47,402 nt of DNA from the IMG/VR virus record IMGVR_UViG_2531839180_000006. One strand, 5' to 3'. The position numbers and the translations under genes are program-made. The notes under the pieces were generated by a model that was not told the DNA's origin, did not search any database, and saw only the letters and a program-made list of their open reading frames with translations. The stretch is from a virus (taxonomy: Duplodnaviria > Heunggongvirae > Uroviricota > Caudoviricetes). Positions 1,791-47,402 of this stretch are shown piece by piece (the first letter of the stretch is position 1; each line of letters begins with the position of its first letter).

Positions 1791-3620
1791 TCAATAGCGG
1801 ATTGTCCCTACATCCATTTCTGGCGAATCCACTAACCAGAAATTATCTGGCTTTACAGCCAGAATGATCCAGGCAGTGTTTGTTGTTGATGACCAGGAAG
1901 GCAGCACATCGTATGCCGGGTCATCGCAAGAATCACGATAACCGTACTCATTAAAAAGTGGAGCCATTGCTGCCACAAGATTCACCGCATTCAGCTCATT
2001 ACCCAGCTTGCGCTCAAAAAGTGCCACACCTGCCGTTCCTTCCACCCACACGCCACGGCTGTGACCACTATAACCATAATCAGGGTGGTACGGTGTGTAA
2101 CCCGTGGTTTCCCTCGTACCAAATAAAAAACGCCCCATATATTTTCGGCACTTAGCCGCTTTCTCAGCATCAATATTGGCAACAAACAATCCGCCCCAGG
2201 AAGACTGATCCAGCGCCGCTGCGTTGTCATAGTGGGTTGAATGAACCCCCTGTCGAAATCGGCCTTCATCTTCCACCCACAGACCTCTGATGATGCTCTT
2301 TGCCAGCCTGTCAGCCCGCTCACTGAAACCGTCAAATCCCAGCCGTCCCATCAGTTCAAACAAAAACCAGATATCAACGTTATGCTCCAGTGCGCACCAT
2401 TCGGCGACAAAAGTTTCATCAAAATTGCCGTCCACATAACGCCCCTGCCCCCCTTTATACAGGCCTTCACGCAGGTCGCCTGGTGTGCTCACCAGAAAAG
2501 TATCCAGCCAGGCAATGCCTGCCAATAGCTTTTCTCTGACCCGCGCAGTCTGAGTACCGTCCGGATACTTCTCCAGATAGAAAGCAAGAGCATAATAAAC
2601 CCATGCCGCATTGCCCAAGCGGTAATAGGTACGCGGTGACATGGCAGACAGCCTGTTAACAAAAAACTTTACTCCACCGTTTTCATCAACAAGCGCACAC
2701 AAGCCCGCAACGTATCTTTCTACAGCCTCATGTCGCTGAACCATCAACGCCAGTGCTGCCAGCGCCTGGTCATACGTGTAACACCGATCTTTCATCACCC
2801 TGATCACTTCGGGGTCTGCGTCCTCCGGCATCCAGTAGCTACGAATGAGCAGTGGAAACTCCAGCGTTGTGATCCACGCATTATCCTCAATCCGAATAAG
2901 ACGAAACTGTTTTGCTCCCGTCCAGCAACGTCTGAAATAGAAAGTTCCGTCACTATTCAAATTAGCGTCGCCGTTAAAATACTCTCCGGTTGTATAAGCA
3001 TACATATCGACTTTATACTTTTCAGGTTCAGGAATATCGCAATATCCGTTAACTGCACCGACATAATTAAAATCGATATTTTCTTTTATTTTTAAAGATA
3101 TTGATGTATTAACAACCTCGGGTTGTTCCAGTTTTAACATTGCAGTAGTGCAACGACTCACGATGTCGTCAAAGTTCTCAAAGCGCAAACCGGGAAAACT
3201 ATCGGCTATTCCCTGCATTTCAGACAGTAACGCTTCTGCCCTTTTTGTCGCTGATATTGCCACATCTGCACTTCGTTGCGCCTGACTTGTCAAATCTTCA
3301 AATCGTTTCACCACATCTGGCTTCAGGTCGCCTTCGTCGGGGGCAGTCAGAAAATCATTCAGCGTACCTGGTCTGGAACCTTCATAAACGGTAATGGTCC
3401 CGGCATGTGAAGGCGGAAAACCTTCAACCAACAGGGTGACGCTGTACTGACCATACTCAACATCCATGCTGTAACGTCCAGCTTCATCCGGATTTTCTGA
3501 GGCCACCGTGTTCACCACAACCGTTGTGCTGTTACGTTTTGCCTTCAGTTGAATAGTGCAGTTCTGTATTGGTTTTCCCGCACCATCTTTCAGCACACCT
3601 GAGATTTTTACTGCTGCCAT
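1791..3620 (-). CDS. stf: Side tail fiber protein: lambda Stf-like N-terminal anchor (~90 aa) fused to a large non-lambda C-terminal domain
   Basis: N-terminus 'MAAVKISGVLKDGAGKPIQNCTIQLKAKRNSTTVVVNTV...GTLNDFL' matches lambda Stf N-terminus; the remainder lacks lambda Stf Ala/Ser-rich repeats. Confidence 0.8.
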   Translation of the reverse strand: MAAVKISGVLKDGAGKPIQNCTIQLKAKRNSTTVVVNTVASENPDEAGRYSMDVEYGQYSVTLLVEGFPPSHAGTITVYEGSRPGTLNDFLTAPDEGDLKPDVVKRFEDLTSQAQRSADVAISATKRAEALLSEMQGIADSFPGLRFENFDDIVSRCTTAMLKLEQPEVVNTSISLKIKENIDFNYVGAVNGYCDIPEPEKYKVDMYAYTTGEYFNGDANLNSDGTFYFRRCWTGAKQFRLIRIEDNAWITTLEFPLLIRSYWMPEDADPEVIRVMKDRCYTYDQALAALALMVQRHEAVERYVAGLCALVDENGGVKFFVNRLSAMSPRTYYRLGNAAWVYYALAFYLEKYPDGTQTARVREKLLAGIAWLDTFLVSTPGDLREGLYKGGQGRYVDGNFDETFVAEWCALEHNVDIWFLFELMGRLGFDGFSERADRLAKSIIRGLWVEDEGRFRQGVHSTHYDNAAALDQSSWGGLFVANIDAEKAAKCRKYMGRFLFGTRETTGYTPYHPDYGYSGHSRGVWVEGTAGVALFERKLGNELNAVNLVAAMAPLFNEYGYRDSCDDPAYDVLPSWSSTTNTAWIILAVKPDNFWLVDSPEMDVGTIRY

Positions 3621-8468: not shown

Positions 8469-9109
8469 TTGTCGGTGTACCTCTCTCGTTTGCTCAGTTG
8501 TTCAGGAATATGGTGCAGCAGCTCGCCGTCACCGCAGTAAATTGCGGCGTGATTCGGCACTGATGAACCAAAACAGCACAGCAGCACATCGCCCGGCTGT
8601 GCCGCTGACAACGGCACCTGATACAGCCCCGTCGCCTCCAGATTATCCAGATAGAGATTCTGGCCGTTACGCCACCAGTCATCCTCACGATAAAAGTCCG
8701 GCATCTCAATCCCCGCCAGATGATAAGCATCCCGGAACAGTGTGTAACAGTCCGTCACACCGTGCTCAAAGCGCCGCCCGGTGAGATGCGGCACACAGCG
8801 GAACTTATGAATCGTCCCCCGGCAGACCAGCCACCACGGCAAATCACTCTGCACCTGCAGCCGCCGGTCGGCCTCACTCAGCCAGGGCAGACCACCGGGG
8901 TGGCTGTGGACCAGCGCCACAATCTCACCCTGCATTTCTGCCTGCAGCCAGTCTTCCGGCGACATACGGAAATACGCCTCCGGCTCACCGGAGATATTCA
9001 CGCAGGGGAAATATCTTTCCCCCTCCGGCGTGCTTACCACGAAGCCGCACGACTCCGCTGGCGCACATCGCCGGGCGTGCGCCAGAATCGCTGATTCTGT
9101 CTGTGTCAT
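8366..9109 (-). CDS. K: Tail assembly protein K (JAB/MPN + NlpC/P60-like)
   Basis: JAMM motif 'HSHPGG...SEAD'; overlaps I as in lambda; synteny. Confidence 0.9.
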   Translation of the reverse strand: MTQTESAILAHARRCAPAESCGFVVSTPEGERYFPCVNISGEPEAYFRMSPEDWLQAEMQGEIVALVHSHPGGLPWLSEADRRLQVQSDLPWWLVCRGTIHKFRCVPHLTGRRFEHGVTDCYTLFRDAYHLAGIEMPDFYREDDWWRNGQNLYLDNLEATGLYQVPLSAAQPGDVLLCCFGSSVPNHAAIYCGDGELLHHIPEQLSKRERYTDKWQRRTHSLWRHRAWRASAFTGIYNDLAAASTFV

Positions 9110-27650: not shown

Positions 27651-27685
27651 GGAGTTTACTCACATCTGACAAAATCAATATAAAC

Positions 27686-27705
27686 AGCCCCTCCGGAGAG
27701 GGGCT
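27686..27705. terminator. Perfect hairpin AGCCCCTC-CGGA-GAGGGGCT downstream of the 111-aa ORF and of the tRNA cluster; possible bidirectional terminator
   Basis: 8-bp perfect GC-rich stem with tetraloop read directly. Confidence 0.4.
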
Positions 27706-27939
27706 GGAGAGTGGCGCTATGTGCCATTGCATGGTGCCGGGTGCCTCCCGGTGAATTCAGTACCAGCACCTGAATCCGCGATTATCCCATATACCTACTC
27801 GCTGATTGCCCCTCCGCACAGGGGGATTCACCATGCCAGTTTCTTTTAACAAACTCCCCGCAAACCAGACAACAGTCAACCGCCTGAATTGTGAGACATT
27901 TAAAAAAAGCCCGCAAAAGCGAGCCAAGGAAAATAAGTG

Positions 27940-28016
27940 TGGCGCGTTGTACTGGATTCGAACCAGTGACCGATTGCTTAGAAGGCAATTGCTCTGTCCG
28001 GCTGAGCTAACAACGC
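27940..28016 (-). tRNA. argO: tRNA-Arg (anticodon UCU), argO-like
   Basis: Minus strand GCGTTGTTAGCTCAGCCGGACAGAGCAATTGCCTTCTAAGCAATCGGTCACTGGTTCGAATCCAGTACAACGCGCCA folds as a canonical cloverleaf (7-bp acceptor, TTCGAAT T-loop, CCA). Confidence 0.85.
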
Positions 28017-28029
28017 AGGATACAGATAA

Positions 28030-28106
28030 TGGACCGCCTTCGGGGACCCGAACTCCGCGCAACCAGCTTCGAAAGCTGGCGCTCTTTCCTGATGAGCTAA
28101 TGGCGG
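28030..28106 (-). tRNA. argN: tRNA-like, probable tRNA-Arg (anticodon UCG by eye), argN-like; non-canonical pairs, possibly degenerate
   Basis: CCGCCATTAGCTCATCAGGAAAGAGCGCCAGCTTTCGAAGCTGGTTGCGCGGAGTTCGGGTCCCCGAAGGCGGTCCA: cloverleaf possible but A-A mismatch in acceptor stem, A-C mismatch in T-stem, G at position 58. Confidence 0.55.
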
Positions 28107-28113
28107 TATGTGA

Positions 28114-28189
28114 TGGTGGCCCTTGCTGGATTTGAACCAGCGACCTGGCGATTATGAGTCGCTCGCTCTCACCACTGAGCTAAAGGGCC
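28114..28189 (-). tRNA. ileZ: tRNA with anticodon CAU (Ile2/lysidine type, ileZ-like; formally Met/Ile)
   Basis: GGCCCTTTAGCTCAGTGGTGAGAGCGAGCGACTCATAATCGCCAGGTCGCTGGTTCAAATCCAGCAAGGGCCACCA; closely resembles E. coli tRNA-Ile2; perfect acceptor stem, TTCAAAT T-loop. Confidence 0.85.
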
Positions 28190-34443: not shown

Positions 34444-34599
34444 TTACTCTCTAGATTCGTAGTCTACGAAAACAGCAACCTCCGTCTGGCCGGTTCGGAT
34501 TCGTACCTCGCAGAGGTCTTTCCTCGTTACCAGTGCCGTCACTATGACGGTTAAACAGATGACGATAAGGGCGATTAACATCGCCTTTTGCTGCTTCAT
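34444..34599 (-). CDS. hok: Hok-family type I toxin (HokD/RelF-like membrane peptide)
   Basis: 'MKQQKAMLIALIVICLTVIVTALVTRKDLCEVRIRTGQTEVAVF' matches Hok/Gef family; AAGGAG SD; in-frame upstream extension (to 34656) may be mok-like. Confidence 0.85.
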   Translation of the reverse strand: MKQQKAMLIALIVICLTVIVTALVTRKDLCEVRIRTGQTEVAVFVDYESRE

Positions 34600-35025
34600 A
34601 GCCTGCTTCTCCTTGCCTTTCGGCACGTAAGAGGCTAACCTACATTTGTGAGACATAGATTGGGCCTCAGATTAATGTTAAGCGTCTTGCAGGACGCGTA
34701 ATGTTAACTGGGGCTTTTCTCTATCTGCCTTTTGGTGTTCATGCCTGAGACAGATAGCCTCAAGCACCCGCAGCAATTCTACTTAACTCTCCTTTTCCCG
34801 CAAACCGTTTTTATCCTCAACGTAAATTTTACCAATATTGCCTAACACATCTCCCTTGCCCTGACGATGCTTACCTCTTTACACAGACCCAAATTTATGT
34901 ATTATCTTTTACAAACAAGCAGTTAAGAGCTATCGGTGGGTGAGTTCGCCCTGCGGTAGCTTTTCCTTTATGCATTGCATCTATTTATGTTCTAGTATAT
35001 TCCTATATGTTCAAAAGGACTTTTC

Positions 35026-39353: not shown

Positions 39354-39876
39354 ACGAACCCCTGGCAGACATTTGTTTATCTGCAAAGTAATATTGATAT
39401 TGCTGACGATACGCATGCTTGAAAGCAATAGCTTTTTCTATAAGCTCGTCAGTCTCACGTTCCACAACAGATGGATCCGCAAAAAGCAGCCCGGACTCCA
39501 CCACATCGCCATATTCTTTGTTTAATCCGGCGATCATGTATGTAATGCTTTTTCCGTCAGTAATTTCACAATACAACCTGAAATCGCTGATCCGGATAGC
39601 CTCCATAATTGCCGGAATCAGCGCCGTGAATTTTTCCCGCTTATCCCTGGTGTCGATAGCTTTCCAGCGTTCGAATATCTTCACCCGGTTAACGCCCAGC
39701 GCCCGTTGATCAACCTCGCCATCATTAAACGTGACGCGTTGAACATCGATGTTCGGGCGTTCTTTCAGAGCCCAGAATGCTTCTGTGATTAATATCGTCG
39801 CCTGCTCTTGTGTCATTCCTGGTCGGCATACCCAGGCATCCAGAGCTTCACAAACCTGTTCAGGGGTGATTTTCAT
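39325..39876 (-). CDS. YdaT-like protein at the cII position
   Basis: 183 aa; 'WKAIDTRDKREKFTALIPAIMEAIRISDFRLYCEITD' resembles Rac YdaT; located between cro-like gene and O. Confidence 0.5.
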   Translation of the reverse strand: MKITPEQVCEALDAWVCRPGMTQEQATILITEAFWALKERPNIDVQRVTFNDGEVDQRALGVNRVKIFERWKAIDTRDKREKFTALIPAIMEAIRISDFRLYCEITDGKSITYMIAGLNKEYGDVVESGLLFADPSVVERETDELIEKAIAFKHAYRQQYQYYFADKQMSARGSYEYRCTTMG

Positions 39877-40087
39877 TGTTCAACCGCCCCGCCCGCTTTG
39901 CCTTACGATATTCGTCATAAACTTTGGGGTCGTACTGAAGTTCCCCGCCGGATGCCTCTTGCAGGCGCATCGCGCGACCTTCAGGAACCAGTTCCCCCCA
40001 TTGAGAAACAGCAGATGGATCAACGCCAGCAGCTTTCGCTACTTTGGCTTTCGTGCCATAAAAATTAATTACGTCTGATTTAAACAT
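39860..40087 (-). CDS. dicC: Cro-like repressor (DicC/YdaS-type HTH)
   Basis: 75 aa; 'GTKAKVAKAAGVDPSAVSQW' HTH; strong SD GGAGGGG; divergent from the DicA-like gene. Confidence 0.75.
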   Translation of the reverse strand: MFKSDVINFYGTKAKVAKAAGVDPSAVSQWGELVPEGRAMRLQEASGGELQYDPKVYDEYRKAKRAGRLNNENHP

Positions 40088-40100
40088 CACCCCTCCAAAG

Positions 40101-40114
40101 TTGAGTTTTCTCAA
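40101..40114. promoter_or_regulatory. Operator-like palindrome TTGAGTTTTCTCAA in the dicA-dicC intergenic region
   Basis: Perfect inverted repeat; same motif recurs downstream of dicA (40634-40646, 40671-40682). Confidence 0.55.
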
Positions 40115-40164
40115 TGGTAATCACTCAAGGAATCTCAAGTCAAGGATTATTAAGATATCTAAAT

Positions 40165-40572
40165 ATGAACGAGAAAACTTTAGGTCAACGAATTAGAGAA
40201 AGACGCAAACAGGTTGGTTTAAGTCAAAACGATTTAAGCAAAGCTGCTGGCGTATCTGGCTCATCAATTTCACTATGGGAAAGCGACCATACAGCCCCGC
40301 GCGGGCAAAATTTGCATCGCCTGGCTGAGGTATTGCAATGCTCACCAACCTGGATACTGTTTGGTGACGAGGATAAAACACCAGATCCCCCAGTTGCACT
40401 TAACAGCGCCTTAGACTTATCGGAAGATGAGTTGGAGATGTTGCGATTGTATCGCGCACTTCCAAAATCAGAGCAGCAAGCACAAATCAGCGAACTCCGT
40501 GCCCGCGTTGAGAATTTTAATCGCCTATTCACCGAGCTACTAGAAGCTCGCAAACGTAACAAACATCAGTAA
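40165..40572 (+). CDS. dicA: Immunity repressor, DicA-like (XRE-family HTH)
   Basis: 135 aa; 'LQCSPTWILFGDEDK' and C-terminal region match E. coli DicA; HTH 'LSQNDLSKAAGVSGSSISLWE'. Confidence 0.85.
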   Translation: MNEKTLGQRIRERRKQVGLSQNDLSKAAGVSGSSISLWESDHTAPRGQNLHRLAEVLQCSPTWILFGDEDKTPDPPVALNSALDLSEDELEMLRLYRALPKSEQQAQISELRARVENFNRLFTELLEARKRNKHQ

Positions 40573-40633
40573 CCCCCTTCACAAATTTTAAAGCCTTACA
40601 TTTCAATGTATTGGCTTTATTTTGCATTAAATA

Positions 40634-40685
40634 TTGAGTTTTCTCATTAAAAATACTTGACCAACATTCATGAGAAAACTAAATT
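40634..40685 (+). promoter_or_regulatory. Candidate promoter of the ydfABC operon (-35 TTGACC, 17-bp spacer, -10 TAAATT) overlapped by two copies of the TGAGTTTTCTCA operator motif
   Basis: Sigma70-like hexamers with 17-bp spacing; operator motif copies at 40634-40646 and (inverted) 40671-40682. Confidence 0.5.
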
Positions 40686-40761
40686 ACCACCCATCAAGAC
40701 ACCGCACGGTGTTCTCAGCAAACAGTTCCGCTACCCGGCGTTAAGGGGAAATGAGGTCAAC

Positions 40762-40917
40762 ATGGATACTATCGATCTTGGCAACAACGAATCTCTGGTA
40801 TACGGCGTGTTTCCCAACCAGGACGGTACGTTCACCGCGATGACGTATACCAAAAGCAAAACGTTTAAAACCGAAAATGGTGCCCGTCGCTGGCTGGAAA
40901 GAAACTCAGGTGAGTGA
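40762..40917 (+). CDS. ydfA: YdfA-like small protein
   Basis: 51 aa 'MDTIDLGNNESLVYGVFPNQDGTFTAMTYTKSKTFKTENGARRWLERNSGE'; GAGG SD. Confidence 0.8.
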   Translation: MDTIDLGNNESLVYGVFPNQDGTFTAMTYTKSKTFKTENGARRWLERNSGE

Positions 40918-40918
40918 T

Positions 40919-41047
40919 ATGGATTTCGACACAATCATGGAAAAGGCTTACGAAGAATACTTCGAAGGTCTTGCCGAAGGCGAAGAAGCTCTCAGCTTCA
41001 ACGAATTTAAACAGGCGCTTTCCAGTTCGGCAAAATCTAACGGCTGA
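40919..41047 (+). CDS. ydfB: YdfB-like small protein
   Basis: 42-aa ORF 'MDFDTIMEKAYEEYFEGLAEGEEALSFNEFKQALSSSAKSNG' immediately after ydfA. Confidence 0.7.
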   Translation: MDFDTIMEKAYEEYFEGLAEGEEALSFNEFKQALSSSAKSNG

Positions 41048-41076
41048 TAAGCGAAACAGCACCGCGAGGAATCAGT

Positions 41077-41295
41077 ATGCAGAAACGAGAACCCGTCATC
41101 ATCGCGCCAGACTATACCGATGATGAACTTTATGAGTGGATGCACCAGAAAATTAATGCAGCGCAGGATCTGAAATGGGCCAATGAAGCCAGGACTAAGC
41201 AGGCTGAAAATCTGTCCGCTCTGGAGCAGGATATCACTAATCTGGAAAAAGCAGCGGCATTAAGCATTGCCAGAATGATTACATACCCGCGTTAA
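41077..41295 (+). CDS. ydfC: YdfC-like small protein
   Basis: 72-aa ORF following ydfB, as in Qin prophage. Confidence 0.7.
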   Translation: MQKREPVIIAPDYTDDELYEWMHQKINAAQDLKWANEARTKQAENLSALEQDITNLEKAAALSIARMITYPR

Positions 41296-41660
41296 TAGCT
41301 AACCAACGAAGCTAAGGTTGGTAATTAAGGAGTTCTCCACGGGTGAGGTGGAGTGCGTGCGCCGGACACGGGTGAGCATCCGGCACTGACAGTTTACTGA
41401 AAGGATATTTCCCTGAAAAGTCAGACCATAACGCGAAAGCGCACGGCGAGGTAGCTGGTTCATAGATAGCCTGTCGTTAAATTTTCGTCGACCGTGCGCT
41501 TCCGGTTGTGGCAATCCGCGAAATGGCGCGGCGGTAAGTATGGCGGGGTTATTCCTTCCCCCGTTGAGGACACCGGGTTGTCAGGTTGACCATACGCTTA
41601 AGTGACAACCCCGCCATAACTCATACTGCTATAGATATATGGGGTCTAACCGGAGGAAAA

Positions 41661-41882
41661 ATGATAGTTCAATGCACAGACGGGAATAATAAGCTGCTCT
41701 GGTCATACGATACCGTCAGCCAGAAACACATAATGAATATGACTTTTATAAAGGACGGTACTCAACAAAAAATCATTACCGCCCTTGCAAGTGCATTAAC
41801 TCAGGCGACAAGCCAAATTCTGCTATCTGATAACGTTAATGGAGTATCTGATATTGGCTCGATGACCGGGAGGGAGTGCTAA
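41661..41882 (+). CDS. Hypothetical small protein (73 aa)
   Basis: ORF with strong SD GGAGGAAAA; 3' end overlaps a convergent minus-strand ORF. Confidence 0.45.
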   Translation: MIVQCTDGNNKLLWSYDTVSQKHIMNMTFIKDGTQQKIITALASALTQATSQILLSDNVNGVSDIGSMTGREC

Positions 41883-42086
41883 TACAACATTCCAGTAACC
41901 CGAGTGGGGCACGGTAATATTGGCAGGGAATCGTTCATAGAAACCGCCGTAATAGGTAAAACGCCCGCCCCGCTTGAAAGCCTGGTAATTTGAATCATCC
42001 ATTAATAAAACATTAATCTGGTGTGAACATTGAACCCTGACAAGGTCACCATCATTCATGTGTTCACGACTATGTATATGGGACAT
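41823..42086 (-). CDS. Hypothetical small protein (87 aa)
   Basis: ORF with strong SD AAGGAG 5 nt before ATG. Confidence 0.5.
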   Translation of the reverse strand: MSHIHSREHMNDGDLVRVQCSHQINVLLMDDSNYQAFKRGGRFTYYGGFYERFPANITVPHSGYWNVVLALPPGHRANIRYSINVIR

Positions 42087-42603
42087 AAACACTCCTTTTT
42101 ACTGTGGAAAGCTAAATCATATCACGGTCTATGAAGTAAAAAGTGAATTTCGTGATGCGGTGAATGCGGCTCAGCGCACGCAGAACAGTTAAAAACACAA
42201 GTGTTATGGGTGAATCATCCGGCGTTAATTGTTAACTGGTTAACGTCACCTGGAGGCACCAGGCACCGCATCACAAAGTTCACTTAGGTGATGAAAGGTA
42301 GAGAAAATGTTGAATGTAGCTATTGAAAACCAGAACGGGTGGAATTATAGTGCACCTGCACCTCATAAAACGGGTGCCGGGCGTGGAAACCCGATGTTCA
42401 CTAACGCGCATAATCGCGCTCAGGCGGTTTTTTTATGCGTAATGCACAGCCACATTCAGATTATGGTGGGACGTGCAGGGCAGCCGCAAGGCTGGCCGGG
42501 TTCGTTAGTGACCGGTATTTCCACCCCTGTACGTCTCACCACCCTTATGGTCGTGGAAAACCTTGGTGGTGAGTTAATCAAATTCACTAACGAGGCTGCT
42601 ATC

Positions 42604-43158
42604 ATGGCTACTATCCCTACCCTTTCTCAACCTGACGTAACCATCGAAAATGGTCGCGCTGTCACTACGTCTGTTGCGATCGCCGAGTTCTTTGGCAAAC
42701 GCCACGACAATGTTATTCAAAAAATAAAATTACTGGATTGCTCCCCTGAATTCACTGCCCTTAATTTTAAGGTGAGCGAATACACCGACTCAACCGGGCG
42801 CAAACTCCCTATGTACCAAATCACCAAAAACGGCTTCGTTTTCCTGGTGATGGGCTTCACGGGCAAAAAAGCCGCAGCTTTCAAGGAAGCCTACATCGCT
42901 GAATTCGATCGCATGGAGGCAGAGTTGTACCAGCTTAATACCACTACCACAGACAAAATAATTCCTGGTGATGGTCGCACTCTCGTTGTTTACTTCGACG
43001 AACGCGGCAATATCAAATTCACCGAAACCGTTCCTGACGGCGCTCTCGTCTGTACTCTGGATACTTTCCGCTTTTATCTGGAGAAGCAGGGGTGGACTCT
43101 TGTAAACAGGAGCGCAATTAAAAATATGACCGTCGAGCAGTTGCTGAGTATTAAATAG
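42604..43158 (+). CDS. rha: Rha-family phage regulatory protein (start uncertain; ORF extends in-frame to 42307)
   Basis: 'RAVTTSVAIAEFFGKRHDNVIQKI' Rha signature; upstream in-frame extension lacks protein-like composition. Confidence 0.7.
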   Translation: MATIPTLSQPDVTIENGRAVTTSVAIAEFFGKRHDNVIQKIKLLDCSPEFTALNFKVSEYTDSTGRKLPMYQITKNGFVFLVMGFTGKKAAAFKEAYIAEFDRMEAELYQLNTTTTDKIIPGDGRTLVVYFDERGNIKFTETVPDGALVCTLDTFRFYLEKQGWTLVNRSAIKNMTVEQLLSIK

Positions 43159-43204
43159 TTTTCTGGAATTTTCTTAATGCGACAAATTTATTAAGGAGAT
43201 AATT

Positions 43205-43426
43205 ATGATTGCTCATCACTTCGGAACTGATGATATTCCTCGTCAGTGCGTGACTCCCGGTGATTATGTTATTCATAAAGGAAGAACATATATTGCTTCG
43301 GTAAACAATATAAAAAAACACCGGCTCTATATTCGTGATTTTTCCACACAACACTGTATTAATGAAACCATGATTAAAGTCTTCCTTGATCGTGATGGTT
43401 TACCTGTAAAGGCGGAGTCGTGGTGA
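43205..43426 (+). CDS. Hypothetical small protein (73 aa)
   Basis: ORF with strong SD AAGGAG. Confidence 0.5.
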
Positions 43427-43543
43427 GCTGTAATAAAATAACTACCCCAATACGACATTCAGTTTAATAAATACATCAGATTCGATTCTTATATGCCAGC
43501 AATGGCAGTGACTTGTTCACCCCTAAATCTGTAATGAGGTTTA

Positions 43544-45982
43544 TTGATGAGCACGAATAAAGAAGTGTTTGCGCTATATTGCGAAGCTAAAAATGACAAG
43601 GTCAGAAAGCGTCTCGGTATTAAAGGTGGCTTTTTCTGGATCGAAGCCAAAAAACTTTCCGTTGCAGTTTCCCGCTGTATTGCCGCTATGGACGATGCTG
43701 GCTACGACGAAGATGATTTCAAAAAAACAGTTCGCATCCATTTGCCTGTTGTAAATGACCTGCCACCTGAAGGCGTATTTGATACTGATTTCTGTAACCG
43801 TTACGAAAAAGGTGGAGAAGATGGCATCACAATGATGCCGGTACCGTCCAGCAACAGCGATGAAAACAGTAACGCCGCTAATACTAACGTCAACGGCGAA
43901 GACATGATTGAGATTGAGGAGAATATTCTTCTGCCGGTTTCAGGTCAGCTTCTGCCTGTTAGATGGCTGGCACAGCACGGCAGCGAAAAACCTGTCACGC
44001 ATGTTTCACGGGATGAACTGCGGGCATTACATAACGCACAGGAAGAAAAACTTCCCGCCGTTACCGCTCTGGCCATCTCAAATAAAGCAGTGCAACTCGA
44101 ACCGCTGGAGATTCGGGATTTGTACAAACTGGTGCGGGACACTGACAAAGTTTTTCCCGCCCCCGTAAATTCAGACCTGGGACTGATGACTTCCTTCATC
44201 GAAGCATACCTGGACGCTGACTACACCAATCGCGGTCTGCTTACAAAAGAGTGGATGAAAGGAAATCATGTTTCGCGAATCAGCCGCACACCATCCGGCG
44301 CTAACGCTGGCGGCGGTATTCTTACCGATCGCGGCGAAGGTTTTGTACACGATGATGCATCACTGGCGCGCGACGTAGCCACTGGCGTGCTGGCCCGTTC
44401 AATGGACGTGGACATTTATAACCTTCATCCGGCACACGCTAAACGCGTCGAGGAAATTATCGCTGAAAATAAACCGCCCTTTTCTGTTTTCTTCAGCAAA
44501 TTCATCACCATGCCGGGCCACAAGGATTTCTCCCGTGCCATCGTGGTTGCCTCCGTGAAAGAAGCACCAGTTGGTATAGAGGCTATGCCCCACCGTGTCA
44601 CCGAATACCTGAATAAAGTGCTGACTGAAACCGATCATGCCAACCCTGATCCGGAAATCGTGGATATTGCCTGCGGTCGCTCCTCTGCCCCGATGCCGCA
44701 GCGTGTAACTGAAAAAGAAAAACATGATGAAGAAAAACCGCAACCATCTGGCGCAATGGCAGATGAACAGGCAACGGCTGAAACAGTGGAACCGGATGCA
44801 ACTGAACATCATCCGGACACGCAGCCGGTGGATGCTCAGCCACAGGTGAATTCTGTTGATGCGAAATATCAGAAACTGCGGGCAGAACTCCATGAAGCCA
44901 GGAAAAACATTTCGCCTAAAAATCCTGTCGACGCAAACAAATTACTGGCAGCCTCTCGCGGAGAATTTGTTGAAGGGATTAGTGACCCGAATGATCCGAA
45001 ATGGGTTAAGGGGCTCCAGACTCGCGAGTCTTCGAACCAGAATCAACCAGAAGTGGAACAAACCAAGCCAGAATCGGGACAAAATAGCCAGGATGCACAC
45101 CAAAATGAACCAAAAACGATACATCCGGAGCCAGCAGCGCAACATGCACAGAAAAATCCCTGTAATGTTTGTGGGGAAACTGGCGGGGGCACATGCCCTG
45201 ACTGTGCCTCAGTAATGGGTGACGCAACTTACCATGAGACATTCTGCGAGGAAGATTCAGATGAATCTCAGGAAAAAGCTCCGGAGGAGATGGAAAACCC
45301 TGAACATCCGCATCCGGAAAATACTGACAGCAATCAGCATAACAATAGCGGTGATAAAACTGACAGGACGACAAATTCCTTAATTAATATGCACGGTCAT
45401 CAGAAAAGAACATCCACCAGCAGAATGTGTCACCATCTGATGATCGACCTTGAAACAATGGGAAAAAATCCTGATTCCCCGATTATCTCAATAGGTGCAA
45501 TATTTTTCGATCCGCAAACCGGAGAGATGGGACCAGAATTTAATAAAACCATCGATCTGGAAACTGCTGGCGGAGTCATTGATCGGGACGCGATCAAGTG
45601 GTGGCTGAAGCAATCACGCGAAGCGCAATCTGCCATTCTGACCGATGAAATCCCGTTAGATGATGCACTGCTGCAATTGCGGGAATTTATCGCCGAAAAC
45701 TCCGGTGAATTGTTTGTTCAGGTCTGGGGAAATGGAGCCAACTTCGACAACGTGATTTTGCGCCGTTCATATGAACGGCAGGGTATCCCCTGCCCGTGGC
45801 GCTACTACAACGATCGCGATGTACGCACAATCATTGAACTGGGAAAATCCATAGACTTCGATGCCAGGACGCCTATTCAATTCGAAGACATACGCCACAA
45901 TGCGCTGGATGATGCCCGTCACCAGGCGAAATACGTTTCAGCAATCTGGCAAAAACTGATCCCGAATCAGTCTGATTTTTAA
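43544..45982 (+). CDS. RecE-like exonuclease VIII family protein with Zn-ribbon and C-terminal DEDDh (DnaQ-like) 3'-5' exonuclease domain
   Basis: N-terminal ~570 aa resembles E. coli RecE N-terminal region; '[15 protein letters not shown]'; C-terminal Exo I-III motifs 'MIDLETMG', 'VWGNGANFD', 'HNALDDARH'. Confidence 0.75.
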
Positions 45983-46045
45983 TGTTCAACCCCGGTCGTC
46001 GCCCCCAGCTATAGTGGCGGCGACCATGATTAGCGAACGATACTC

Positions 46046-46294
46046 ATGGCAAGACTTATTCTGCTCACTGAGTGGGCAAAAGAGGAATTCAGCGATCCGG
46101 TCCCTACTCCGGGCACGTTAAGTAAATACGCTAAAGCCGGAATGATATTTCCTCTCCCCAAAAAAGTTGGAAGACACTGGCGAGTGGATCCGCGAGCTCG
46201 CTTTGTCGGAATGGTAAACAAGCCGGAGGTGATCGCCACAGATCACCCTGCTTTAAAGAGGATACTGGAAGATGGCACGCCCGCGAAAATATAA
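46046..46294 (+). CDS. xis: Excisionase (Xis-like DNA-binding protein)
   Basis: 82-aa ORF immediately upstream of and overlapping int; wing-helix-like 'LSKYAKAGMIFPLPKKVGRHWRV'. Confidence 0.7.
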   Translation: MARLILLTEWAKEEFSDPVPTPGTLSKYAKAGMIFPLPKKVGRHWRVDPRARFVGMVNKPEVIATDHPALKRILEDGTPAKI

Positions 46295-47402
46295 AACCGC
46301 TGTTCCGGGATTATCTCCGTATTTTGACAAAAGAAATAACAAAGTTTACTGGCGTTACAGGCATCCCATCACAGGTAAAAATCATGGACTCGGCAGTATT
46401 GACCAGAAACTGGCGGAAACCATTGCAGCAGAAGCGAACAGCCGTCTTGCCAGACAACAAATGGAGCAAATGCTCAGTCTGCAGGAGAAAATTATTAATG
46501 ATACCGGCGGTTCATCAACCGTTTCCATTTTTCTGAATAATTACAGAAAAATTCAACAGGAAAGATATGAAAACGGAGAAATCAAACTCAACACGCTGAA
46601 ACAGAAAGCGGCCCCTCTCAGGGTTTTTGATGAACGTTTTGGCACCAGACCGTTAGATGCCATAACCGTAAAGGATGTGGTATCGGTGCTGGAAGAGTAC
46701 AAGTCCAGAGGACATAACAGAATGGGACAAATTTTCAGGAAGGTACTGATCGATGTTTTCCGGGAGGCTCAGCAAACGGGCGATGTCCCGCCAGGCTTTA
46801 ACCCTGCAGAATCGGCAAAAAAACCACAGGTGCGGATATCAAGACAGCGACTGACTTTTGATGAGTGGACGATGATTTATAACGCAGCGGAAAAGGATGG
46901 TTACTTTTTACAGCGCGGTATGCTGCTGGCACTGATGACAGGCCAGCGCCTTTCAGATATTTGCAAAATGCAATTTTCGGATATCCGGGATGGTTATCTT
47001 CATGTCGAACAGCAAAAAACAGGAACCCGGATTGCCATCCCTCTGGCTCTGCGTTGCGATAAATTAAATCTCACCCTGGATGATGTGGTGTCATCCTGTC
47101 GCGATTGCGTTCTTAGTCCGTGGCTATTGCACCATCATCACGCGAAAGGGACAGCTAAGCGCGGCGGGATGGTTAAGCCAGCAACGTTAACCGTTGCATT
47201 TAAAAAAGCGCGGGATTCTGTGGATTACAACTGGCGTGCTAATGGCACCCCACCCTCTTTCCATGAGCAGAGATCTTTATCAGAGCGATTGTTCAGAGAG
47301 CAGGGAATTGATACCCAAATTTTGCTGGGTCATTCGAATCAAAAAATGACCGATATTTACAACGATGCACGCGGCAAGGAGTGGAAAAAACTGGTCATTT
47401 GA
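46272..47402 (+). CDS. int: Tyrosine integrase (lambda Int family)
   Basis: 376 aa; N-terminal arm-binding region, C-terminal catalytic 'HEQRSLSERLF...LLGHSNQKMTDIY'; stop TGA is the last codon of the window. Confidence 0.9.
   Translation: MARPRKYKTAVPGLSPYFDKRNNKVYWRYRHPITGKNHGLGSIDQKLAETIAAEANSRLARQQMEQMLSLQEKIINDTGGSSTVSIFLNNYRKIQQERYENGEIKLNTLKQKAAPLRVFDERFGTRPLDAITVKDVVSVLEEYKSRGHNRMGQIFRKVLIDVFREAQQTGDVPPGFNPAESAKKPQVRISRQRLTFDEWTMIYNAAEKDGYFLQRGMLLALMTGQRLSDICKMQFSDIRDGYLHVEQQKTGTRIAIPLALRCDKLNLTLDDVVSSCRDCVLSPWLLHHHHAKGTAKRGGMVKPATLTVAFKKARDSVDYNWRANGTPPSFHEQRSLSERLFREQGIDTQILLGHSNQKMTDIYNDARGKEWKKLVI

What the first reader, a model, noticed from the sequence alone, without database searches (positions are those of the whole stretch)
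41296..41660. Highly structured 365-bp intergenic region at the dicF position downstream of ydfABC
After ydfC the next ORF starts only at 41661. The gap contains a duplicated decamer CACGGGTGAG, a GCCGGA...TCCGGC hairpin, a 10-bp long-range inverted repeat AAGCGCACGG...CCGTGCGCTT (41436..41500), GTTGTCA...TGACAAC, and GGCGGGG...CCCCGCC. In Qin this location encodes the DicF sRNA processed from the ydfABC transcript. The canonical DicF sequence is not present, so this may be a divergent processed sRNA or RNase III/E substrate.
Basis: partly seen in the sequence, partly recalled or inferred. Interest (0 to 1): 0.45.

Follow-up and report, generated by a model that had tools for sequence, protein, structure and literature searches.

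The report
Orphaned leader RNA of DicF precursor
The gap after ydfC is the conserved non-coding leader that normally precedes the DicF small RNA; it contains a strongly conserved, unannotated folded RNA domain found in about 80% of E. coli genomes and in phage P1, but here DicF itself has been swapped for a rare gene cassette.

Summary
The sequence features are real. Window 41296-41620 is about 98% identical to the E. coli K-12 Qin ydfC-dicF spacer. It is not a divergent DicF. Homology stops at 41620, about 20 nt before the DicF 5' end. DicF and its terminator are replaced by a 520-bp cassette (orf73 plus a DUF1883 gene on the minus strand) seen in only 8 of 5426 E. coli genomes.

The leader has three parts: three small hairpins; a roughly 20-bp duplex (41426-46 with 41492-511); and a 117-nt domain, "block B" (41504-41623). 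Length arithmetic places the published K-12 RNase III cut, which makes the 190-nt "long DicF", inside the duplex. Block B is a three-way junction with a loop-to-internal-loop pseudoknot.

Block B has strong covariation: 16 of 39 pairs change on both sides, against 5.9±1.5 in shuffles. It has no Rfam match. It occurs in 4315 of 5426 E. coli genomes, in other Enterobacterales prophages, and behind Pban in P1 and P7. An intrinsic terminator follows it in 101 of 104 distinct loci.

Best reading: block B is the 5' body of a family of roughly 190-nt early phage RNAs, here missing its 3' module. Its own function is unknown. A put-like antiterminator role is not excluded.

The parts
41296..41313 (+). 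Spacer just after the ydfC stop codon (41293-95). It is a mosaic joint: strain STEC005 carries a 590-bp two-ORF insertion exactly here.
   Evidence: Alignment A1; annotation of L001
41335..41353 (+). Hairpin h1, CUCCAC-GGGUGAG-GUGGAG. It holds the first copy of the decamer. In some relatives an unrelated hairpin (ACCACACG/CGUGUGGU) sits at the same place.
41361..41384 (+). Hairpin h2, GCCGGA-CACGGGUGAGCA-UCCGGC. It holds the second copy of the decamer. The stem is invariant in 20 distinct variants; the loop varies (for example CACGGAUAAGAA).
41386..41424 (+). Hairpin h3, CUGAC...GUCAG, with an inner GGAU..UCC stem. The stem is invariant, so there is no covariation evidence either way.
41426..41511 (+). 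Long stem 1. The 5' arm is CCAUAAC-GCGA-AAGCGCACGG (41426-46). The 3' arm is CCGUGCGCUU-CCG-GUUGUGG (41492-511). The apical region is about 45 nt. It forms a roughly 20-bp duplex of RNase III-substrate type. The predicted RNase III cut lies at about 41499-41505, by homology with K-12.
   Evidence: Fold z = -3.8. The duplex is kept in 33 distinct arm pairs from 4 sequence families, with dG from -12.7 (one Serratia outlier) to -36 kcal/mol, most -21 to -36. K-12 RNase III data: PMC10448788.
41504..41623 (+). Block B, a conserved three-way-junction and pseudoknot RNA domain. P0: 41505-12 with 41613-20. P1: 41516-20 with 41527-31. Pa: 41532-35 with 41572-75. Pseudoknot: 41538-43 with 41590-95. P2: 41544-48 with 41559-63. 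P3: 41576-83 with 41603-10. P3b: 41584-86 with 41596-98.
   Evidence: RNAalifold finds P0, P1, Pa, P2, P3 and P3b on its own. Covariation counts. Model R1 gives one hit in the window, 140.5 bits. The single-sequence MFE gives the same fold.
41621..42139 (.). Cassette that replaces the RNase E site, DicF and its terminator. It holds orf73 (41661-41882, +, phrog_21096) and a DUF1883 gene (41823-42092, -).
   Evidence: Homology break in A1. Present in 8 of 5426 genomes. No match in the phage collection. Pfam and PHROGs hits. The distance from block B to long stem 2 is 521 nt here against 40-99 nt (mostly 60-79) in 64 other loci.
42143..42283 (+). Long stem 2 (42143-62 with 42264-83; 20 bp with 1 mismatch). 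It encloses an STnc100-like module. It is homologous to the K-12 dicF-dicB spacer, where RNase III makes the 3' end of the 72-nt DicF.
   Evidence: Sequence. K-12 row of A1. Weak STnc100 match at 42155-42277, 33.8 bits. Literature: PMC9438474 and PMC5069750.
40657..40685 (+). Promoter-like site (TTGACC-17-TAAATT) between the dicA-like repressor gene and ydfA. It is the likely dicBp equivalent that transcribes the whole region.
   Evidence: Gene identities.

Best explanation
The 365-bp gap is the non-coding leader of the dicB-type early-left operon of a Qin-like prophage. It is read on the + strand from the DicA-repressed promoter upstream of ydfA.

The leader is a chain of RNA modules: three small hairpins, a roughly 20-bp duplex (long stem 1), and a 117-nt compact domain (block B, a three-way junction locked by a pseudoknot).

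In the normal arrangement, RNase III cuts long stem 1. This removes strand 'a' (CCAUAAC), which competes for strand 'b' (GUUGUGG). Strand 'b' can then pair with 'a-prime' (CCAUAAC, 41614-20) and close block B.

The product is a stable RNA of about 190 nt. It consists of block B, a short linker, and a terminator hairpin. In Qin the linker and hairpin are DicF, which RNase E then releases as the 53-nt form. P1 and P7 make the same layout directly from the C1-controlled Pban promoter.

Block B is therefore the conserved 5' body of a family of early phage small RNAs whose 3' modules vary. Its near-invariant loops and junctions imply that it is recognised by a conserved host partner, rather than serving only as a protective 5' structure.

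In this window the 3' module (RNase E site, DicF, terminator) was replaced by an orf73/DUF1883 cassette. Block B is therefore an orphan. It is probably still excised at its 5' side, and it now forms the 5' end of the orf73-containing RNA.

What is shown: the homology, the fold, the distribution and the terminator linkage. [quoted passage not shown] What is inferred: the cut position here, the a/b/a-prime switch and the partner-binding role.
For: Identity
- 98% identity to the K-12 ydfC-dicF spacer up to 41620.
- The flanking genes are ydfA (DUF1391), ydfB and ydfC.
- No DicF match.

Processing in K-12
- RNase III makes the 5' end of a 190-nt DicF species, and RNase E makes the 53-nt form. There is no internal promoter (PMC10448788).
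- Counting 190 nt back from the DicF 3' end gives L002:3246, which is window 41499. That is inside the 3' arm of long stem 1.
- Long stem 1 is kept as a roughly 20-22-bp duplex in four unrelated sequence families.

Fold
- 95.6% of cells are paired.
- 16 of 39 pairs have changes on both sides, against 5.9±1.5 in shuffles (0 of 500 reach the observed value) and 1-5 in slid controls. MAFFT alignments give the same result.
- RNAalifold finds the helices independently.
- The pseudoknot GUAUGG/CCAUAC becomes GCAUGG/CCAUGC in P1.
- The G-U pairs fit only the + strand.

Switch
- The unprocessed RNA has near-isoenergetic folds of -76.6 and -73.9 kcal/mol. After the cut, the P0 fold is the MFE.

Family
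- Block B occurs in 4315 of 5426 E. coli genomes, with up to 8 copies, and is unannotated.
- It occurs in 61 phage records, including P1, P7, mEp460, 2H10 and cdtI, and in 510 plasmid records.
- It occurs in Citrobacter, Serratia, Trabulsiella, Erwinia and Izhakiella.
- 101 of 104 distinct loci have an intrinsic terminator 30-140 nt downstream, with 36 different hairpins.
- In P1, the distance from the Pban start to the terminator is about 180 nt.

Cassette
- Present in 8 of 5426 genomes.
- The spacing outlier is unique to this arrangement.
Against: - There are no expression or processing data for this strain.
- The cut position is mapped by length arithmetic and a predicted transcription start, giving 41499-41505, not by a stated coordinate.
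- A simple precursor or stabiliser role does not explain why loops and junctions are invariant from P1 to Erwinia prophages. No partner has been identified.
- Variants lacking strand b (L016, L063, Shigella L136) show that P0 is dispensable for retention of the domain.
- Helices P1 and Pa, and most of the pseudoknot, hardly vary. Their support rests on few changes.
- The fate of the block B fragment of about 137 nt after the RNase E cut has not been reported.
Confidence: 0.55

Rival explanations
1. Block B is a cis-acting RNA that modifies the transcribing RNA polymerase, like the put RNAs of HK022. Early-left transcription could then pass the terminator that follows it, and later ones, in phages that have no N protein.
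For: - Block B sits at or near the start of repressor-controlled early operons in three unrelated promoter contexts: DicA-type PL, the 'TTGTTGGGGA'-operator PL and P1 Pban.
- It is almost always followed within 30-140 nt by an intrinsic terminator.
- In 2H10 a roughly 590-nt untranslated leader with a strong terminator precedes the whole left operon.
- No N-like family was found among the early-left genes tested.
- N-less lambdoid phages are noted in the literature as possibly using RNA antitermination (PMC12315714).
- The invariant loops fit a conserved host target such as RNA polymerase.
- In the window an intrinsic terminator (the isrK one, 42412-42435) still lies downstream.
Against: - Model R1 finds nothing in HK022 or HK639, including the annotated putL-like RNA. 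The architecture also differs: a three-way junction with a pseudoknot, against two stems.
- In K-12 the main ydfA-containing transcript ends at the dicF terminator despite block B upstream. Read-through is seen mainly when RNase E is inactive (PMC10448788).
- There is only one copy per phage and none in the rightward operon, unlike putL and putR.
- The early-left operon need not be essential.
Confidence: 0.15
2. Block B is an autonomous trans-acting RNA, for example a decoy or sponge for a host protein. It would be made in bulk early after derepression because most transcripts stop at the adjacent terminator. On this view DicF-type 3' modules are add-ons.
For: - P1 and P7 carry it as a promoter-to-terminator unit of about 180 nt.
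- Block B is more conserved than the 3' modules, which comprise 36 different terminator hairpins.
- Loops and junctions are invariant.
- The 190-nt species is stable in stationary phase.
Against: - No partner is known, and no phenotype is assigned to the upstream part.
- 53 nt suffice for the DicF effects (literature).
- This overlaps with the best explanation and cannot be separated from it with these tools.
Confidence: 0.15
3. Block B is a riboswitch-like sensor that controls the adjacent terminator through alternative pairing.
For: - The fold is compact and aptamer-like, with conserved junction nucleotides.
- A terminator lies downstream.
- A real alternative pairing exists, a:b against b:a-prime.
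Against: - The alternative pairing is on the 5' side, not with the terminator.
- The distance to the terminator stem varies from 11 to about 30 nt or more, and no conserved antiterminator exists.
- The GGCGG competition idea fails in P1.
- The phage context gives no obvious ligand.
Confidence: 0.05
4. The region encodes a divergent DicF-like antisense small RNA.
For: It occupies the dicF position downstream of ydfABC.
Against: - The region aligns to the spacer upstream of dicF, not to dicF.
- There is no DicF model match even at E<=10.
- No terminator follows (exception L001, which is identical to the window).
- DicF was removed by cassette replacement.
Confidence: 0.02
5. The conservation reflects a small protein gene or a minus-strand RNA. 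Annotators have called minus-strand ORFs over this element in Ayreon, 2H10 and pPE4.
For: - The minus-strand fold has a better z-score for the whole gap: -4.8 against -1.9.
- 'Hypothetical protein' calls overlap the element in several phage records.
Against: - Variable columns show no codon periodicity (26/21/24, chi2 0.5). Lengths differ by non-multiples of 3, from 116 to 124 nt.
- Invariant U-G and frequent G-U pairs would be A-C mismatches on the minus strand.
- The minus-strand MFE relies on the helix that comparative data do not support.
- The K-12 RNA species are plus-strand.
Confidence: 0.03

Closest known systems
ydfC-dicF untranslated region of E. coli K-12 Qin, the 190-nt 'long DicF' (Faubladier 1990; Ragunathan 2023, PMC10448788)
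   Same: About 98% identical over 41296-41620, with the same flanking genes ydfABC. It has the same long duplex, where RNase III makes the 5' end of the 190-nt RNA, and the same block B.
   Different: The window lacks the last 70 nt or so: the RNase E site, the 53-nt DicF and its terminator. A 520-bp cassette takes their place. I found no description in the literature of the fold of the upstream 137 nt, or of its occurrence apart from DicF.
'dicF-like region' behind Pban in phages P1 and P7 (GenBank AF234172, AF503408)
   Same: It holds block B at 77-82% identity, with compensatory changes in P2, P3, Pa and the pseudoknot. It is followed by an intrinsic terminator and is controlled by the phage repressor.
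   Different: It is transcribed directly from a promoter about 25 nt upstream, so no RNase III duplex is needed. It has an extra 3' hairpin and a different closing helix (AGCU/AGCU). There is no DicF by Rfam. tRNA genes and ban lie downstream.
put antiterminator RNAs of HK022 and HK639
   Same: They are structured, cis-encoded RNAs placed just after early promoters of N-less lambdoid phages, upstream of terminators.
   Different: They are about 70-125 nt, with two or three stems and no pseudoknotted three-way junction. Model R1 shows no similarity to them. put occurs in both early operons, whereas block B occurs only in the left one. No antitermination activity is shown for block B.
DicF small RNA (Rfam RF00039)
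   Same: Same operon and same position. In most relatives DicF directly follows block B.
   Different: DicF is absent from the window.
STnc100 (Rfam RF02076), the dicF-dicB spacer module
   Same: It is another structured module of the same leader, also enclosed by a roughly 20-bp duplex that RNase III cuts in K-12. It is present in the window at 42143-42283.
   Different: The sequence and fold differ. It lies outside the finding's coordinates, and the match is below the gathering score (33.8 against 47 bits).

Membership tests
DicF small RNA (RF00039) | Match to the DicF covariance model at or above the gathering score of 48 bits | tested here: not met
   There is no DicF hit in the whole window at gathering score, and none in 40900-42400 at E<=10. 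The same scan finds DicF at 76.7 bits in K-12 and mEp460.
DicF small RNA (RF00039) | Rho-independent terminator forming the 3' end | tested here: not met
   No terminator lies within 220 nt downstream of block B in the window type. The scan of 40000-47402 finds the next plus-strand terminator at 42412-42435.
DicF small RNA (RF00039) | Location downstream of ydfABC in a DicA-controlled operon | tested here: met
dicBF-operon leader, the precursor of the 190-nt long DicF | Sequence homology to the K-12 ydfC-dicF spacer | tested here: met
   About 98% identity from 41296 to 41620.
dicBF-operon leader, the precursor of the 190-nt long DicF | RNase III-cleavable duplex that yields the 5' end of the 190-nt RNA | tested here: inconclusive
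   The duplex is conserved (41426-46 with 41492-511). The K-12 190-nt start maps into its 3' arm by arithmetic. Cleavage in this strain cannot be tested here.
dicBF-operon leader, the precursor of the 190-nt long DicF | DicF and terminator at the 3' end of the unit | tested here: not met
   They are replaced by the cassette at 41621-42139.
Block B RNA domain (defined here, model R1) | Full-length match to R1, with helices P0, P1, Pa, P2, P3, P3b and the pseudoknot | tested here: met
   140.5 bits, E = 3e-37, model positions 1-120. All helices are formed in the window sequence. The window sequence was part of the seed alignment, so the match holds partly by construction.
put antiterminator RNA (HK022 and HK639) | Sequence and structure similarity to putL or putR | tested here: not met
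   R1 gives no hit at the put sites of HK022 (L147, L148) or HK639 (L149) at E<=10. BLAST finds only matches of 10-13 nt.
put antiterminator RNA (HK022 and HK639) | Promotes terminator read-through in cis, dependent on the beta-prime zinc-binding domain | not testable with these tools
   This needs transcription assays.
RNase III substrate | About two helical turns (about 20 bp) of near-perfect double-stranded RNA | tested here: met
   Long stem 1 has 7 + 2 + 10 bp with small internal loops and a hairpin dG of -37.4 kcal/mol. Long stem 2 has 20 bp with 1 mismatch.
tRNA or tmRNA-like element | Detected by ARAGORN or the Rfam tRNA and tmRNA models | tested here: not met

The most novel reading that the evidence does not exclude
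Block B is a new class of cis-acting RNA that binds the elongating RNA polymerase and alters termination. It would be a functional analogue of put, unrelated in sequence and fold. N-less lambdoid phages of Enterobacterales and P1-like phage-plasmids would use it to control passage from a short early RNA into the long early-left operon.
Probability: 0.15. Interest if true: 0.85.

Novelty: new variant of a known kind. Interest (0 to 1): 0.55.

Why it matters
DicF is a long-studied bacterial small RNA. The 137 nt that precede it in the 190-nt form have been treated as precursor material to be discarded.

The comparative data show that this part is the better-conserved unit. It is a pseudoknotted three-way-junction domain with near-invariant loops. 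It is present in about 80% of complete E. coli genomes, with up to 8 copies, in several other genera, and in P1-type phage-plasmids. It is coupled to 36 different terminator modules. It is absent from Rfam and from genome annotation, where spurious ORFs are sometimes called over it.

This points to an unrecognised functional RNA in the early programme of temperate enterobacterial phages. It also gives a concrete fold and concrete mutants to test.

The window is a natural variant in which the domain is separated from DicF. It could be used to ask what the domain does on its own.

Tried and rejected
1. **Minus-strand RNA.** It has a better z-score for the whole gap (-4.8 against -1.9). I rejected it because invariant U-G and frequent G-U pairs fit only the plus strand, and because its MFE uses the unsupported helix.
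It has no covariation. It appears only as the alternative fold of the unprocessed E. coli-type RNA.
3. **Protein coding.** There is no codon periodicity, and the indels break the reading frame.
4. **Known RNA families.** Rfam at E<=10 and ARAGORN find nothing.
5. **put membership.** Rejected.
6. **A second pseudoknot between the CU-rich P2 loop and the GAGGA of J2/3.** It pairs in E. coli, P7 and L022 types but not in P1, Erwinia, Izhakiella or Serratia. This was checked by eye, and dropped.
7. **Competition between GGCGGUA of block B and the identical start of the terminator 5' arm for the CCGCC 3' arm.** It is not possible in P1 or P7, so I dropped it.
8. **boxA-like UGCUCU in the 3' arm of long stem 1 of Erwinia-type loci.** It is buried in a duplex and absent from the E. 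coli type, so I dropped it.
9. **ops-like GGCGGTAAGTAT against the ops consensus GGCGGTAGnnTG (recalled from memory).** Position 8 is A, so the C3:G8 pair of the ops hairpin cannot form. I did not pursue it.
10. **A 'cargo slot' between block B and long stem 2.** Only the window type departs from the 40-99 nt spacing.
11. **Papers not held.** The Faubladier 1994 paper, the P1 genome paper and King 2011 could not be read.
12. **Single-sequence folds of the whole P1 and K-12 RNAs of about 190 nt.** They were ambiguous.
Full report
**What is at the coordinates**

The window carries a Qin-like immunity and early-left region.
- A P22_Cro-type gene lies on the minus strand at 39860-40114.
- A DicA-like HTH repressor gene lies at 40114-40572.
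- A promoter-like site lies at 40657-40685.
- ydfA (DUF1391), ydfB and ydfC follow, with ydfC ending at 41295. RefSeq gives the same names for the identical stretch in strain STEC005.

Rfam finds no family in 41296-41660, neither at gathering score over the whole window nor at E<=10 over 40900-42400. ARAGORN finds no tRNA or tmRNA there.

**Identity of the gap**

I aligned the window with K-12 Qin, where ydfC ends at L002:3042 and dicF is L002:3383-3435.
- Window 41296-41620 is about 98% identical to the ydfC-dicF spacer.
- Identity stops just after ...CCCCGCCAUAAC at 41620, about 20 nt before the DicF 5' end.
- Identity resumes at 42140 (AAAGTGAATTT...), which is the K-12 sequence directly after the DicF terminator.

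The RNase E site, DicF and its terminator have therefore been replaced by about 520 bp. The insert carries orf73 (phrog_21096) and a minus-strand DUF1883 gene. This cassette is found in only 8 of 5426 complete E. coli genomes and in no phage record. Among 65 loci where both landmarks could be measured, the distance from block B to the next duplex is 40-99 nt (mostly 60-79) in 64. It is 521 nt only in the window type.

The region is therefore not a divergent DicF. It is the conserved upstream part of the DicF precursor, left without DicF.

**What is known experimentally about the homologous K-12 sequence**

Ragunathan et al. 2023 (PMC10448788) confirm and extend Faubladier 1990.
- DicF exists as a 190-nt and a 53-nt species.
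- The 190-nt 5' end is made by RNase III. The cut lies between +813 and +814 of the dicBp transcript, and the species is absent in an rnc mutant.
- RNase E converts the 190-nt species to 53 nt, and the 190-nt species accumulates in rne-ts.
- There is no internal promoter.
- RNase III also makes the 3' end of a 72-nt form (PMC9438474 and PMC5069750).

Counting 190 nt back from the DicF 3' end gives L002:3246, which is window 41499. Counting +813 from the predicted transcription start gives about 41504. Both fall in the 3' arm of the long duplex formed by 41426-46 and 41492-511. The 72-nt end falls in the 5' arm of a second 20-bp duplex (window 42143-62 with 42264-83).

These two mappings are my arithmetic, not coordinates stated in the papers.

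**Long stem 1**

It reads CCAUAAC/GUUGUGG, then a small internal loop, then AAGCGCACGG/CCGUGCGCUU (fold z = -3.8).

Across relatives the duplex is kept in 33 distinct arm pairs from four unrelated sequence families. Examples are GAGAGCAUUG/CAGUGCUCUC in Erwinia-type loci and UAAGAGCAUUCC/GGAAUGCUCUUU in Trabulsiella. The dG ranges from -12.7 (one Serratia outlier) to -36 kcal/mol, most between -21 and -36, and the apical inserts from 31 to 128 nt. That is helix-level covariation.

**Block B**

BLAST against phages showed that window 41505-41620 travels as an independent block.
- It is 92% identical in Ayreon, cdtI, 2H10 and Stx2c phages.
- It is 77-82% identical in P1 and P7, where it lies just behind the C1-controlled Pban promoter. 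GenBank labels that stretch a "dicF-like region".
- Rfam finds DicF only in K-12 and mEp460 among these.

Pattern scans added about 73 distinct variants from viral contigs. They also added copies in E. albertii, E. ruysiae, Shigella, Citrobacter, Serratia symbiotica, Trabulsiella, Erwinia tracheiphila and Izhakiella.

The consensus fold is a three-way junction closed by P0 (41505-12 with 41613-20). Its other elements are:
- hairpin P1;
- helix Pa, which encloses hairpin P2;
- hairpin P3/P3b;
- a pseudoknot between GUAUGG (41538-43, in the Pa/P2 internal loop) and CCAUAC (41590-95, in the P3b loop).

RNAalifold found P0, P1, Pa, P2, P3 and P3b on its own. The single-sequence MFE of the window copy gives the same fold.

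Covariation results on three alignments:

| Alignment | Sequences | Pairs changed on both sides | Shuffle mean | Shuffles reaching observed |
|---|---|---|---|---|
| MAFFT (A3) | 51 | 11 | 4.2±1.4 | 0 of 500 |
| MAFFT (A4) | 23 | 12 | 4.7±1.5 | 0 of 500 |
| Model-guided (A5) | 60 distinct | 16 of 39 | 5.9±1.5 | 0 of 500 |

In the model-guided alignment, slid controls give 1-5 such pairs and 95.6% of cells are paired.

Clear compensatory cases:
- P3 GGGUUGUCA/UGACAACCC becomes GGGUAACCA/UGGUUACCC in Izhakiella.
- UUGUCA/UGACAA becomes UUGCCA/UGGCAA in P1 and P7.
- P2 appears as CGGGG/CCCCG, CUGGG/CCCAG, CAGGG/CCCUG, CCCGGG/CCCGGG and CAGGUG/CACCUG.
- Pa CGGU/ACCG becomes CGGC/GCCG in P7.
- The pseudoknot GUAUGG/CCAUAC becomes GCAUGG/CCAUGC in P1.

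Invariant U-G and frequent G-U pairs fix the strand as plus. The element is not coding. Variable columns fall 26/21/24 over the three codon phases, and lengths run from 116 to 124 nt.

It shows up only as the alternative fold of the uncut E. coli-type RNA.

**A processing-linked switch (inferred)**

Strand b (GUUGUGG, 41505-11) can pair with strand a (CCAUAAC, 41426-32), which extends long stem 1. It can also pair with a-prime (CCAUAAC, 41614-20), which forms P0. The two CCAUAAC copies are the 7-nt direct repeat that one search reported.
- For the uncut RNA (41424-41623), the a:b fold (-76.6 kcal/mol) and the P0 fold (-73.9) are close in energy.
- After a cut at about 41499, the P0 fold is the MFE at -47.8 kcal/mol.

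RNase III cleavage would thus commit the RNA to the closed block B fold. Variants that lack strand b (L016, L063, Shigella) show that P0 is not indispensable.

**Distribution and context**

- Block B occurs in 4315 of 5426 complete E. coli genomes, at 8968 places and with up to 8 copies per genome. RefSeq annotates nothing over it in the hits listed.
- It occurs in 61 phage records.
- It occurs in 510 plasmid records, mostly P1-like.
- In 101 of 104 distinct loci an intrinsic terminator follows within 30-140 nt, with 36 different hairpins. The three exceptions are the window type and two decayed copies.
- In P1 the distance from the Pban start to the terminator is about 180 nt. In K-12 the RNase III-to-terminator RNA is 190 nt.
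- In 2H10 the element sits in a roughly 590-nt untranslated leader between PL and the first gene.
- In Erwinia, Izhakiella and Serratia-type prophages it lies shortly after an operator-flanked promoter.

The conserved unit is therefore block B, a short linker and a terminator hairpin. DicF is one version of the 3' part. Block B is better conserved than that 3' part.

**How it most likely works**

The best-supported account is this. The gap is a processed non-coding leader whose core, block B, is the 5' body of a family of roughly 190-nt early phage RNAs. In Qin-type prophages the RNA is released by RNase III at long stem 1 and trimmed by RNase E to free DicF. In P1 and P7 it is transcribed directly.

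The invariance of loops and junctions from P1 to Erwinia prophages argues for recognition by a conserved host partner rather than mere 5' protection. No partner is identified.

In this window the unit has lost its 3' module. Block B would now be the 5' end of the orf73-containing RNA that lies between the two RNase III-type duplexes.

**Rivals**

A put-like antiterminator role is attractive for several reasons.
- Block B sits behind early promoters.
- A terminator follows directly.
- No N-like family was found by PHROGs in the early-left genes tested.
- The literature remarks on N-less lambdoid phages.

Several points count against it.
- Block B is unrelated to put by model search.
- It is present only in the left operon.
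- In K-12 the main transcript still ends at the dicF terminator.

Riboswitch, divergent-DicF, coding and minus-strand readings are weak or contradicted, as set out in the rival entries.

**Comparison with what is known, and novelty**

The locus and its RNase III and RNase E processing are known. I found none of the following in Rfam or in the papers I could search and read:
- the fold of the upstream 137 nt;
- its covariation;
- its independence from DicF;
- its presence in P1 and P7 and in several genera;
- its tight linkage to varied terminators.

Three relevant older papers could not be read, so prior description cannot be excluded. I file this as a new variant of a known kind. It is a known precursor region that contains an unrecognised conserved RNA domain, seen here in a rare DicF-less arrangement.

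Noticed in passing
window 42307-43158: The 283-aa ORF that RefSeq annotates as a Rha family regulator has Pfam Ash and Rha domains. It runs straight through strong Rfam matches to isrK (42358-42434, 62 bits) and C4 antisense RNA (42459-42546, 80 bits), plus a weak c4-a1b1 target match (42345-42397). This looks like a P1 immI-type antirepressor control module. The N-terminal third of the annotated protein, and perhaps the Pfam Ash match at residues 14-109, may be translated RNA genes.
   Followed up: partly
window 42143-42283: A 20-bp duplex (42143-62 with 42264-83) encloses an STnc100-like module (Rfam 33.8 bits, below the gathering score of 47). It is homologous to the K-12 dicF-dicB spacer. 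By arithmetic, the K-12 RNase III cut that makes the 72-nt DicF falls in its 5' arm.
   Followed up: partly
window 27676-28189 (-): A full-length STnc100 match (132 bits) lies directly downstream of three tRNA genes on the minus strand, in the late-region side of the prophage.
   Followed up: no
window 34594-34769 (-): A strong match to the sok antitoxin RNA (120 bits), suggesting a hok/sok-type toxin-antitoxin locus inside the prophage.
   Followed up: no
L001 (E. coli STEC005) 2565-3155, which corresponds to window 41313/41314: An otherwise identical prophage has a 590-bp insertion with two opposed small ORFs exactly between the ydfC stop and the first leader hairpin. This marks another mosaic joint.
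   Followed up: no
L145 (Erwinia tracheiphila), L146 (Izhakiella), L134 (Serratia symbiotica), L143 (Trabulsiella), L055: In these prophages the terminator hairpin after block B has a loop of about 45 nt. The loop contains a Shine-Dalgarno sequence and a conserved start, (A/G)UGUUCU(A/G)CCG, that runs into the 3' arm of the terminator. The downstream reading frame is not conserved between loci.
   Followed up: partly
L151 (phage 2H10) 5176-5263; the same module occurs in L005 (Ayreon), L039, L140 and L145: After the terminator comes a second long duplex (ACAAAACAGAGAAGAGCAUC... / ...GGUGUUCUUCUCUGUUUUGU). It encloses a conserved module (CAUCACCGGGCGACGGGCUCAUAACCCAAUCCACCCGGG). It is paralogous in layout to long stem 1 and lies just before the first gene's ribosome-binding site.
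   Followed up: no
L008 (Actinobacillus phage vB_Apl-pPE4) 1480-1800: A phage deposited as infecting Actinobacillus carries an E. coli-type dicA, block B and kil region. The ydfA start is fused directly to block B, and the linker-terminator unit is tandemly duplicated. The host assignment or the assembly may deserve a check.
   Followed up: no
Phage records MF807953 (Ayreon), NC_049950 (2H10), PP818812 (pPE4): Minus-strand 'hypothetical protein' or 'Phage protein' CDSs are annotated over block B and its terminator. Given the RNA evidence, these are probably spurious gene calls.
   Followed up: partly
window 41432-41448 and 41517-41533: There is a 17-nt direct repeat at 82% identity (CGCGAAAGCGCACGGCG and CGCGAAATGGCGCGGCG). 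Variants L016, L063 and Shigella L136 look like deletions between these repeats, which remove strand b and the 3' arm of long stem 1.
   Followed up: partly
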